Positions 315-510 of a stretch of DNA of 6,146 bases are shown here, piece by piece. The number at the start of each line of letters is the position of its first letter. The stretch's first letter is position 1. Source of the DNA: a virus (taxonomy: Duplodnaviria; Heunggongvirae; Uroviricota; Caudoviricetes); IMG/VR virus record IMGVR_UViG_3300028991_000057, positions 1 through 6,146 of that record. One strand, written 5' to 3'. Under the pieces are notes generated by a model. That model did no database searches. It was not told where the DNA came from and saw only the letters and a list, made by a program, of their open reading frames with translations. Both the position numbers and the translations under genes were made by a program.

Positions 315-510
315 TCGGGTCCTTCCTGGAATTATGGCCCGTTACGGGGCGGCGACCTCGCGGATTTTATCTGTTTATGAAAATTTTCCGGCAAAAGTCA
401 GATCCGTTCTTCTTCTCTGTAACAGACTGTTTAACAATGAAAATATTAAAAAAAGAAAGGATCTGACACGAGGCATTTTAGCCAGAAAATGCCATTATCA
501 GATCCTTTCT
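315..510 (+). other. lambda-type cos site, complete: cosQ-like 315-346, cosN 347-358, I2-like 359-397, cosB R3/R2/R1-like elements 398-510
   Basis: GTTACG|GGGCGGCGACCT|CGCGG at 341-363 matches the lambda right-end/left-end junction as I recall it, with the 12-nt cohesive end identical. Downstream TTTATGAAAATTTTCCGG and CCGTTCTTCTTC also match the lambda left end. Three 12-bp elements TCAGATCC(G/T)TTC sit at 398-409 (direct), 455-466 (inverted) and 499-510 (direct), mirroring the R3/R2/R1 layout of lambda cosB. Confidence 0.8.

What the first reader, a model, noticed from the sequence alone, without database searches (positions are those of the whole stretch)
398..510. cosB-like R elements with altered sequence imply retargeted packaging specificity
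Three 12-bp elements TCAGATCC(G/T)TTC occur in direct, inverted and direct orientation, the same layout as R3/R2/R1 of lambda cosB. They share the right half (CC(G/T)TTCT) with lambda R sites but replace GTTT with AGAT in the left half. cosN is identical to lambda, so a lambdoid helper large terminase could cut it, while the Nu1-like TerS here (divergent N-terminal DNA-binding region, conserved C-terminal region) would recognise the element's own cosB. This is the logic of satellites that redirect helper packaging. R2 and R1 also form the arms of a long compound hairpin (455-510, with an inner 8-bp palindrome at 472-493) that could double as a terminator for terS.
Basis: partly seen in the sequence, partly recalled or inferred. 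Interest (0 to 1): 0.6.

Follow-up and report, generated by a model that had tools for sequence, protein, structure and literature searches.

The report
Helper-phage-type second cos site in PICI
The three repeats are real, but they are the ordinary terminase-binding site (cosB) of a known phage class (Gifsy-1 type), carried as a second, inverted packaging site by a known kind of E. coli phage satellite whose own small terminase appears to recognise a different site 800 bp away.

Summary
TCAGATCC(G/T)TTC occurs three times (398-409 +, 455-466 inverted, 498-509 +) against 0.06 expected. The repeats lie downstream of a lambda-identical cosN (347-358) and cosQ (317-323), with the same spacing as lambda R3/R2/R1.

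The window is an EcCICFT073-like PICI, a satellite family published as having two cos sites. This site corresponds to EcCICFT073 cos2.

The AGATCC repeats are not a private specificity. They are the cosB of Gifsy-1 and of dozens of lambdoid prophages, whose small terminase (TerS) always carries the recognition helix DVRT(I/V)T-WQSQG.

The satellite's TerS (538-1092, minus strand) instead has an N15-type DNA-binding domain. Across related islands, the cosB of the other cos (1108-1255, upstream of terS) covaries with the island's TerS or Rpp type. The cosB of this cos does not: related islands carry a Gifsy-1, 21, N15 or PhiR12 type here, or lack the site.

Most likely this is a swappable copy of a helper phage's cos, used by the helper's own terminase. 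The satellite's TerS would redirect packaging to the upstream cos. No binding or cutting was tested here.

It is a new member of a known kind, of modest interest.

The parts
317..323 (+). cosQ of the downstream ('cosDown', EcCICFT073 cos2-like) site, GGGTCCT
   Evidence: Lies 30 nt before the cohesive end, as in lambda. About 94% conserved across 60 unique related cos sequences.
347..358 (+). cosN cohesive-end sequence GGGCGGCGACCT, identical to lambda
   Evidence: Alignment with lambda bp 1-17; position.
364..396 (+). I2-like AT-rich spacer between cosN and cosB
   Evidence: TTTATGAAAATTTT is conserved in all lambda-like cos sites aligned.
398..413 (+). R3, TCAGATCCGTTCTTCT (Gifsy-1-class R sequence)
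   Evidence: Same position as lambda R3 (bp 50-65).
420..432 (-). I1-like IHF consensus with one mismatch (AAACAGTCTGTTA)
   Evidence: It lies at the position of lambda I1 but is not significant on its own.
451..466 (-). R2, inverted (AAAAGAAAGGATCTGA on the + strand)
   Evidence: (I8, I11).
472..493 (.). Inner 8-bp hairpin in the R2-R1 loop
   Evidence: Relatives keep the stem while changing its sequence.
498..511 (+). R1, TCAGATCCTTTCTC
   Evidence: AGATCCTTTC is at least 95% conserved, although the retrieval pattern did not require it.
283..537 (+). The whole cosDown cassette, between the start of the 93-aa ORF and the terS stop codon
   Evidence: A clean 255-bp indel relative to NZ_AP045810. 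Absent in 7 of 21 related islands with N15-type TerS.
538..1092 (-). terS (Nu1 family). The likely start is at 1080 (MKSHL) or 1065 (MNKK). N15 gp1-type DNA-binding domain and lambda-type C-terminal half.
   Evidence: Pfam PF07471 E = 7e-23; 44-47% identity to N15 gp1; hhalign probability 100% against lambda-type TerS; C-terminal type.
1156..1178 (-). Candidate cognate R3 of the satellite TerS in the upstream cos (GGTGGTGGTGGTTTTGTTGTTTG, bp 48-70)
   Evidence: 8/10 match to the N15 R3 core GGTTGTTGTT at bp 51-60. Covaries with N15-type TerS in 21 of 21 islands.
1108..1125 (-). Inverted R2-like copy of that element (GCAAACAATACACCAACC in the cosUp/terS-sense orientation)
   Evidence: Inverted repeat I20. 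The same two-part layout is seen in N15-type cosB copies of RppA islands.
1214..1225 (-). cosN of the upstream cos ('cosUp', EcCICFT073 cos1-like)
   Evidence: Part of the 76-nt inverted repeat 316-391 / 1181-1256 (I1).
1249..1255 (-). cosQ of the upstream cos

Best explanation
The window is part of an EcCICFT073-like phage-inducible chromosomal island (PICI). Positions 317-511 are the island's second, inverted cos site, the counterpart of EcCICFT073 cos2. It is a complete copy of a lambdoid phage cos: cosQ, lambda-type cosN, I2, then a tripartite cosB (R3, I1, R2, R1) of the Gifsy-1 specificity class.

Proposed mechanism (inferred, not tested here):
1. When a helper of that class grows in the cell, the helper's own TerS (recognition helix DVRT[IV]T.WQSQG) binds these R elements with IHF. 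It positions the helper's TerL on cosN, and island concatemers are packaged from this site.
2. Independently, the island's own TerS has an N15-type winged-helix domain and a lambda-type C-terminal half. It would bind the other cos (1108-1255), directly upstream of its gene, and recruit a lambda-type helper TerL there. That is where retargeting happens.
3. The two sites are inverted relative to each other. Translocation started at one site therefore meets the other with cosQ on the wrong side and should not terminate there, so the two routes stay separate.

What is shown: the anatomy, the spacing, the class assignment and the covariation. What is inferred: binding, cutting, the TerL pairing and the insulation of the two routes.
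For: Identity of the element:
- Synteny with CFT073: PerC, 68-aa ORF, capsid c1499, decoration c1500, 137-aa ORF, cos, rppA, inverted cos, 93-aa ORF.
- Both EcCICFT073 cos sites were shown to be functional. cos1 depends on Rpp, and deleting cos2 does not abolish transfer (PMC6092414, PMC6739421). cos1 is the site upstream of rpp, with the start codon near bp 102 (PMC9026076).

Class of the R elements:
- Gifsy-1 has CCAGATCCGTTCTTCTT, AGAAAGGATCTG and GCAGATCCTTTCC at the same positions.
- 94 IMG/VR contigs carry the motif pair. In 63 of them an ORF opens on the same strand just after R1. Every complete, unframeshifted TerS read there has DVRT[IV]T.WQ[SN]QG. A few of the 63 are spurious or frameshifted ORFs.
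- The same class is present in E. coli prophages, with matches in 691 of 5426 genomes.

Independence from the island's own TerS:
- The same cosB occurs beside satellite TerS proteins with N15-type or 21-type DNA-binding domains.
- In a sample retrieved through the neighbouring 137-aa protein, and so not biased by the motif, islands with N15-type TerS have a 21-type site (8), a Gifsy-type site (6) or none (7). RppA islands have a PhiR12-type site (6) or an N15-type site (5).
- EcCICFT073 cos2 is 93% identical over 179 bp to the cos of phage PhiR12_1, whose TerS has yet another DNA-binding domain.

Cognate pairing at the other cos:
- The cosB of the upstream cos covaries with the island protein in every case: RppA 11/11, N15-type TerS 21/21, and 21-type TerS with a full 21-type cosB.
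- The N-terminal region of the island TerS is 27/44 identical to that of N15 gp1.
- The upstream cos carries an N15 R3-like sequence.

TerL pairing:
- Gifsy-class TerS proteins have a 21-type C-terminus, while the island TerS has a lambda-type C-terminus. The two sites would therefore engage different helper terminases.
Against: - No binding, cutting or transfer data exist for this island. TerS-encoding E. coli PICIs tested in PMC6092414 were not mobilised by their resident prophages.
[quoted passage not shown] R3 here shares GTTCTTCTT with lambda R3, so the island's N15-type TerS could cross-use this site.
- No Gifsy-class prophage was seen in the same genomes as these islands in the IMG/VR sample, judged only by eye from contig names.
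- The related loci are close relatives, so the covariation counts are not independent events.
- In EcCICFT073, deleting cos2 increased transfer by lambda and phi80. The second cos can therefore be a cost with some helpers.
Confidence: 0.68

Rival explanations
1. One reading: the AGATCC R elements are the island's private cosB. The island's own TerS binds them and hands a helper TerL to the lambda-type cosN at 347-358.
For: - The site is adjacent to terS.
- The island TerS has a divergent DNA-binding domain and a conserved Nu1-like remainder.
- N15-type terminase can use lambda cosB (PMC4669245), and R3 here keeps lambda's GTTCTTCTT half.
Against: - The R type is a common phage class whose TerS has a different recognition helix.
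- The same R elements occur with two unrelated island TerS DNA-binding domains.
- The same island TerS occurs with a 21-type site or with no site here.
- terS converges on the site instead of following it.
- A cos with an N15 R3-like sequence lies directly upstream of terS and covaries with it.
Confidence: 0.12
2. The region now works mainly as an intrinsic terminator for terS (the R2/R1 hairpin plus a U run). The cos features would be a relic of recombination with a phage.
For: - Strong hairpin at -33.7 kcal/mol, z = -6.4, followed by U7 on the terS sense strand.
- The cassette is a clean indel.
Against: - cosQ, cosN, I2, R3 and the exact spacing are all intact and conserved, which a terminator would not require.
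- Lambda's R2/R1 forms the same hairpin, so the hairpin is a by-product of the cosB layout.
- Islands without the cassette have terS abutting the next ORF with no terminator.
- The homologous EcCICFT073 cos2 is functional as a cos (PMC6092414).
- The simple terminator scan did not call it.
Confidence: 0.1
3. Decoy or interference site: the phage-type cos soaks up the helper's TerS and terminase, or provokes unproductive cutting. This would lower helper yield rather than serve island transfer.
For: - PICIs of this family interfere with helper packaging (PMC6739421).
- Deleting cos2 raised EcCICFT073 transfer (PMC6092414), so the site is not simply beneficial for transfer.
Against: - A complete cos with cosQ in a replicating concatemer is expected to be packaged.
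- The double cos deletion abolished transfer while single deletions did not, so cos2 supports transfer (PMC6092414).
- There is no direct evidence here.
Confidence: 0.1

Closest known systems
EcCICFT073 cos2 (E. coli PICI; Fillol-Salom et al. 2018, 2019)
   Same: Same island family and same location: between the rpp/terS gene and the 93-aa ORF, inverted relative to the cos upstream of that gene. cosQ, cosN and the left flank are nearly identical.
   Different: In CFT073 the cosB is of the PhiR12 type (CCATGTCCGGTTTCTC, three copies, R2 and R1 both inverted). Here it is of the Gifsy-1 type with the lambda layout. CFT073 has rppA (144 aa), whereas this island has a full-length TerS. The published papers reported finding no phage cosB in EcCICFT073.
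cosB of phage Gifsy-1 and related lambdoid prophages
   Same: Same R consensus, orientation pattern and positions. The AGATCC cores sit at bp 54, 113-114 and 154-155. There is also the same run of A before R2 and the same hairpin between R2 and R1.
   Different: In the phages, terS follows on the same strand and carries the DVRT[IV]T.WQSQG helix. Here a non-cognate terS converges on R1. Gifsy-1's cosN is GGGCGGCAGCGT, whereas here it is lambda's GGGCGGCGACCT. Some prophages (L098, L075) already combine a lambda cosN with this cosB.
Lambda cosB (R3-I1-R2-R1)
   Same: Same architecture, spacing and right half of the R sequence (TCC(G/T)TTCT), and the same R2/R1 hairpin.
   Different: The left half is AGA instead of GTT at bp 54-56. 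This includes bp 56, which is a known specificity contact (PMC9026076, PMC4669245).
Phage N15 cos and TerS (gp1)
   Same: The island TerS shares N15's recognition region (AFDKWGV.PVE..GRE.F.DV). A GGT(T/G)GT(T/G)GTT element lies near bp 48-60 of the cos upstream of terS.
   Different: This concerns the other cos, not the finding's R elements. The TTGTTGTTT run lies 9 bp further from cosN than in N15. The inverted second copy is at bp 101-118, not inside the gene at bp 249-260.
cos-carrying SaPIs (SaPIbov5 and SaPIbov4, as cited in PMC6092414)
   Same: These satellites are packaged because they carry a copy of the helper's cos. SaPIbov4 is also reported to have two putative cos sites.
   Different: They are Gram-positive elements with an HNH-dependent cos system and no sequence relationship. 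They were not examined here.

Membership tests
Lambda-type tripartite cosB | Three R repeats, with R2 inverted relative to R3 and R1 | tested here: met
   (I8, I11).
Lambda-type tripartite cosB | [quoted passage not shown] | tested here: met
   Cores at bp 54, 113 and 154, against lambda's 54, 114 and 156. cosQ at 317-323.
Lambda-type tripartite cosB | IHF site (I1) between R3 and R2 | tested here: inconclusive
   A one-mismatch WATCARNNNNTTR match at 420-432, at the lambda I1 position. Such matches are common (19 observed against 10 expected in the window).
Lambda-type tripartite cosB | Cognate terS immediately downstream on the same strand | tested here: not met
   terS is on the opposite strand and converges on R1. 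Its DNA-binding domain is N15-type.
Lambda-type tripartite cosB | Bound by TerS and required for cosN nicking | not testable with these tools
   Needs EMSA or footprinting and packaging assays.
Gifsy-1 packaging-specificity class | R consensus CAGATCC(G/T)TTC | tested here: met
Gifsy-1 packaging-specificity class | TerS with recognition helix DVRT[IV]T.WQSQG encoded beside the site | tested here: not met
   No such TerS in the window. It is present in the phage-type contigs. A helper would have to supply it.
EcCICFT073-like cos PICI | Conserved gene order: PerC, 68-aa ORF, E-like capsid, D-like decoration, 137-aa ORF, cos, rpp/terS, inverted cos, 93-aa ORF, plus SSB and primase | tested here: met
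   The integrase, alpA-side genes and att sites lie outside the window and were seen only in the relative L001.
EcCICFT073-like cos PICI | Induction and transfer by a helper phage | not testable with these tools
   Experimental. Published only for EcCICFT073 (PMC6092414).
Rpp (redirecting phage packaging) proteins | 135-153 aa, winged-helix domain plus own dimerisation helices, and no TerS-type C-terminal TerL-binding region | tested here: not met
   The ORF is 175-184 aa and 20% identical to RppA. It is full-length Nu1-like over residues 5-165.
Nu1-type small terminase (PF07471) | Pfam match above threshold and full-length homology to lambda-type TerS | tested here: met
   E = 7e-23, 81 bits against a cut-off of 30. 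hhalign probability 100%, 161 aligned columns. PHROG 57.
Nu1-type small terminase (PF07471) | [quoted passage not shown] | tested here: inconclusive
   The single-sequence AlphaFold model was unusable (pLDDT 47.6). There was no PDB hit by sequence. Support comes only from alignment to lambda Nu1 and N15 gp1.
N15 packaging specificity (applies to the upstream cos) | N15-like recognition helix together with a GGTTGTTGTT-like R3 near bp 48-59 | tested here: met
   N-terminal region 27/44 identical to N15 gp1. GGTGGTGGTT at bp 51-60 matches the core 8/10, and TTGTTGTTT lies at bp 61-69.
Intrinsic terminator (for terS) | GC-containing hairpin directly followed by a U run on the sense strand | tested here: inconclusive
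   The fold is strong and followed by U7. The consensus scan did not call it, and lambda cosB folds alike.

The most novel reading that the evidence does not exclude
This PICI family may run a two-cos system. One cos is private: it is matched to the island's own TerS or Rpp and never changes partner. The other is public: an inverted 255-bp cassette that copies a helper phage's cos. The cosB of that cassette is exchanged among at least four phage specificity classes (Gifsy-1, 21, N15, PhiR12), or the cassette is lost. In the sample it was never of the same class as the island's own protein. That would widen the range of usable helpers to phages whose TerL the island's TerS cannot recruit. The inverted orientation would keep the two packaging routes from terminating at each other's sites.
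Probability: 0.4. Interest if true: 0.55.

Novelty: new member of a known kind. Interest (0 to 1): 0.35.

Why it matters
The role of the second cos site of E. coli PICIs has been open since 2018. The published work reported finding no phage cosB in EcCICFT073. This analysis suggests that the second site is a faithful copy of a phage cos, that its cosB is swapped between phage specificity classes, and that only the first site tracks the island's own TerS or Rpp. If confirmed, helper range could be predicted from sequence: the cosB class of cos2 plus the C-terminal type of the island TerS. It would also assign DNA-binding-domain and R-site pairs (Gifsy-1, PhiR12, N15-like) that can be tested with lambda hybrid phages. 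For the finding as written, the result is mostly deflationary, because the altered R sequence is an ordinary phage specificity class.

Tried and rejected
- A single-sequence AlphaFold2 model of the TerS had a mean pLDDT of 47.6. It is unusable, so no fold search was run.
- A sequence search of the PDB with the TerS gave only a spurious ankyrin-repeat hit.
- Rfam found nothing in the window.
- The consensus terminator scan did not flag the R2/R1 hairpin.
- An N15-style remote rR2 inside terS was looked for and not found at the N15 position. Only weak matches with two mismatches turned up. An inverted copy lies at bp 101-118 instead.
- Co-residence of Gifsy-class prophages with these islands was checked only by eye, from the IMG/VR genome identifiers. 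No overlap was seen. This is too weak a test to count either way.
- The idea that the 76-nt inverted cos arms make terS an invertible segment was considered and dropped. Inversion would only flip terS against its operon, and all relatives show a single orientation.
- The conservation of R3 and R2 is circular, because the retrieval pattern required them. Only the conservation of R1 and the protein-anchored sample were used as evidence.

Full report
**Observation.** The three elements exist exactly as described. TCAGATCCGTTC lies at 398-409 (+), and TCAGATCCTTTC lies at 455-466 (-) and at 498-509 (+). That is 3 matches against 0.06 expected, and none of 200 shuffles reached 3. They follow cosQ (GGGTCCT, 317-323) and a cohesive-end sequence identical to lambda's (GGGCGGCGACCT, 347-358). 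[quoted passage not shown] Lambda's sit at 54, 114 and 156, and Gifsy-1's at 54, 114 and 155. A one-mismatch IHF consensus lies at the lambda I1 position (420-432). R2 and R1 form a compound hairpin with an inner 8-bp stem, and lambda's R2/R1 does the same.

**What the element is.** The window matches chromosomal islands in about 2,000 of 5,426 complete E. coli genomes. In NZ_AP045810 the island is about 11 kb. It has an integrase, a primase, PerC, SSB, an E-like capsid protein, a D-like decoration protein and a small terminase. The gene order is that of EcCICFT073, the reference Gram-negative cos PICI: PerC, a 68-aa ORF, capsid c1499, decoration c1500, a 137-aa ORF, cos, rppA, an inverted cos and a 93-aa ORF.

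EcCICFT073 is published as having two functional cos sites. cos1 depends on Rpp, cos2 does not, and only the double deletion abolishes transfer (PMC6092414, PMC6739421). cos1 is the site directly upstream of rpp (PMC9026076; bp 102).

The window has the same layout. A 76-nt inverted repeat (316-391 against 1181-1256, 79% complementary) consists of two copies of cosQ-cosN-I2 that flank terS (538-1092, minus strand). The finding's R elements therefore belong to the downstream, inverted site, which is the homologue of cos2.

**The R type is a phage class.** Gifsy-1 has CCAGATCCGTTCTTCTT, AGAAAGGATCTG and GCAGATCCTTTCC in the same places, followed by its terS. The E. coli prophage SerU-LTIIb has them too. 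A scan of IMG/VR for AGATCCKTTCT...AGAAAGGATCT found 94 contigs.
- In 63 of them an ORF starts on the same strand just after R1. Every complete, unframeshifted TerS read there carries DVRT[IV]T.WQ[SN]QG. A few of the 63 are spurious or frameshifted ORFs.
- At the two positions known to discriminate lambda from 21 (residues 20 and 24, PMC4669245), this class has T and S. Lambda has Q and E, and 21 has E and S.
- R1, which the search pattern did not require, is at least 95% conserved in its AGATCCTTTC core, while the spacers vary.

**The island's TerS is not of that class.** It is a full-length Nu1 homologue (Pfam E = 7e-23; hhalign probability 100% over 161 columns). Its N-terminal region is N15 gp1-like, with 27 of 44 residues identical (SATAFDKWGVTPVERKGREAFYDV).

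N15's R3 is GAGGTTGTTGTT at bp 48-59 (PMC4669245). The cos upstream of the island terS has GGTGGTGGTGGTTTTGTTGTTTG at bp 48-70 and an inverted partial copy at bp 101-118.

**Covariation.**
- Among islands that share the AGATCC site, the converging TerS has either the N15-type domain or a 21-type domain (DPRTIERWQ). The upstream cos then carries, respectively, the GGTGGT...TTGTTGTTT element or a complete 21-type cosB (GCATGTCGGTACTTCT and its partners).
- A second sample was retrieved through the neighbouring 137-aa protein, so it is not biased by the motif. It was restricted to loci long enough to judge.
  - RppA islands always have GGTGACACCACCACCAC upstream (11/11). Downstream they have a PhiR12-type site (6) or an N15-type site (5).
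  - Islands with N15-type TerS always have the N15-like element upstream (21/21). Downstream they have a 21-type site (8), a Gifsy-1-type site (6) or nothing (7).
- The cassette 283-537 is a clean 255-bp indel.
- EcCICFT073 cos2 is itself 93% identical over 179 bp to the cos of phage PhiR12_1. That phage's TerS has yet another DNA-binding domain (VATQTEVARHLSLTDRQLRRLQK).

The upstream cosB therefore tracks the island's own protein, and the downstream cosB does not.

**Mechanism (inferred).** The downstream cos is a copy of a helper-phage cos, used by the helper's own TerS/TerL holoenzyme. The island TerS redirects a helper TerL to the upstream cos.

TerS C-terminal halves fall into two types. 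Lambda, N15, PhiR5_1, PhiR12_1 and the island share one type. Phage 21-like TerS, CFT073 prophage 4 and all sampled Gifsy-class TerS share the other. The C-terminal part of TerS carries TerL specificity (PMC9026076). The two sites would therefore engage different helper terminases, which suggests a wider helper range.

Termination in lambda needs cosQ ahead of cosN. The inverted orientation should therefore prevent a run started at one site from ending at the other. This last point is inference.

**Caveats.**
- Nothing was tested biochemically.
[quoted passage not shown] R3 here keeps lambda's GTTCTTCTT half, so some use of this site by the island TerS cannot be excluded.
- The compared islands are close relatives, so the counts are not independent events.
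- In EcCICFT073, deleting cos2 increased transfer by lambda and phi80 (PMC6092414).
- The terminator reading of R2/R1 is plausible. It is not needed by islands that lack the cassette, and the hairpin is a general property of this cosB layout.

**Comparison and novelty.** The architecture is that of lambda cosB, the specificity class is Gifsy-1's, and the context is EcCICFT073 cos2. One defining feature of a phage cosB is not met: the cognate terS is not downstream on the same strand. The island protein is not an Rpp, because it is full length and only 20% identical to RppA.

The finding is a new member of a known kind. What goes slightly beyond the literature held here is that cos2 sites carry genuine phage cosB sequences of several classes, independent of the island's TerS or Rpp. 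The 2018 and 2019 papers reported no phage cosB in EcCICFT073, and Murialdo and Feiss (2022) analysed only cos1.

**Verdict.** Interest is modest (0.35).

Noticed in passing
window 1108-1256 (minus strand): A second complete cos lies in inverted orientation upstream of terS: cosQ 1249-1255, cosN 1214-1225, an N15-like R3 at 1156-1178 and an inverted copy at 1108-1125. Together with 316-391 it forms a 76-nt inverted repeat. It is probably the island TerS's own site.
   Followed up: yes
window 1166-1184: The G-run and GGT-repeat tract between I2 and the N15-like R3 varies in length among related islands (for example GGGGGGTGGTGGTGG, GGGTGGTGGTGGTGG, or one GGT fewer). This would shift the spacing between cosN and R3, which is critical in lambda.
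   Followed up: partly
window 283-537 versus L001 9266-9278: The whole downstream cos is a clean 255-bp insertion or deletion. In NZ_AP045810 and in 7 of 21 related islands, terS abuts the 93-aa ORF.
   Followed up: yes
window 1256-1286, 3529-3559, 3892-3922: There are three near-identical terminator-like hairpins (GCCGGAGAAATCCGGC plus a T run on the minus strand). One of them sits immediately before the upstream cos.
   Followed up: no
window 5220-5460: A dense array of GGTGAACAG direct and inverted repeats lies between an 81-aa ORF and the end of the primase gene. It is probably the island's replication origin.
   Followed up: no
window 1288-1701 (minus strand): The 137-aa ORF next to the decoration gene matches the C-terminal part of the head maturation protease PHROG 53 (E = 3e-8). 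That is the region which in lambda gpC corresponds to the Nu3 scaffold. The island may therefore encode a scaffold as well as capsid and decoration proteins.
   Followed up: no
L004 3130-3345 (CFT073) and L302 800-1030 (phage PhiR12_1): EcCICFT073 cos2 carries three CATGTCCGGTT repeats and is 93% identical over 179 bp to the cos of phage PhiR12_1. That phage's TerS has an unrelated N-terminus (VATQTEVARHLSLTDRQLRRLQK). The published papers reported no phage cosB in this island.
   Followed up: partly
related loci L102-L181: Islands with N15-type TerS never carried an N15-type cosB in the second cos (0 of 21), while RppA islands did (5 of 11). The second cos may be chosen to differ from the island's own specificity. 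The sample is small and the islands are related.
   Followed up: partly
related loci L010, L018, L028, L029, L031: In some islands the two cos sites have different cosN sequences, for example GGGTACGGATAC downstream and GGGCGGCAGACG upstream. This fits the idea that each site is matched to a different helper.
   Followed up: no
window 3925-4317 and 4208-4618 (minus strand): The longest PerC ORF overlaps the SSB ORF by 110 nt. Relatives annotate a shorter PerC (90 aa), so the real start is probably a later ATG.
   Followed up: no
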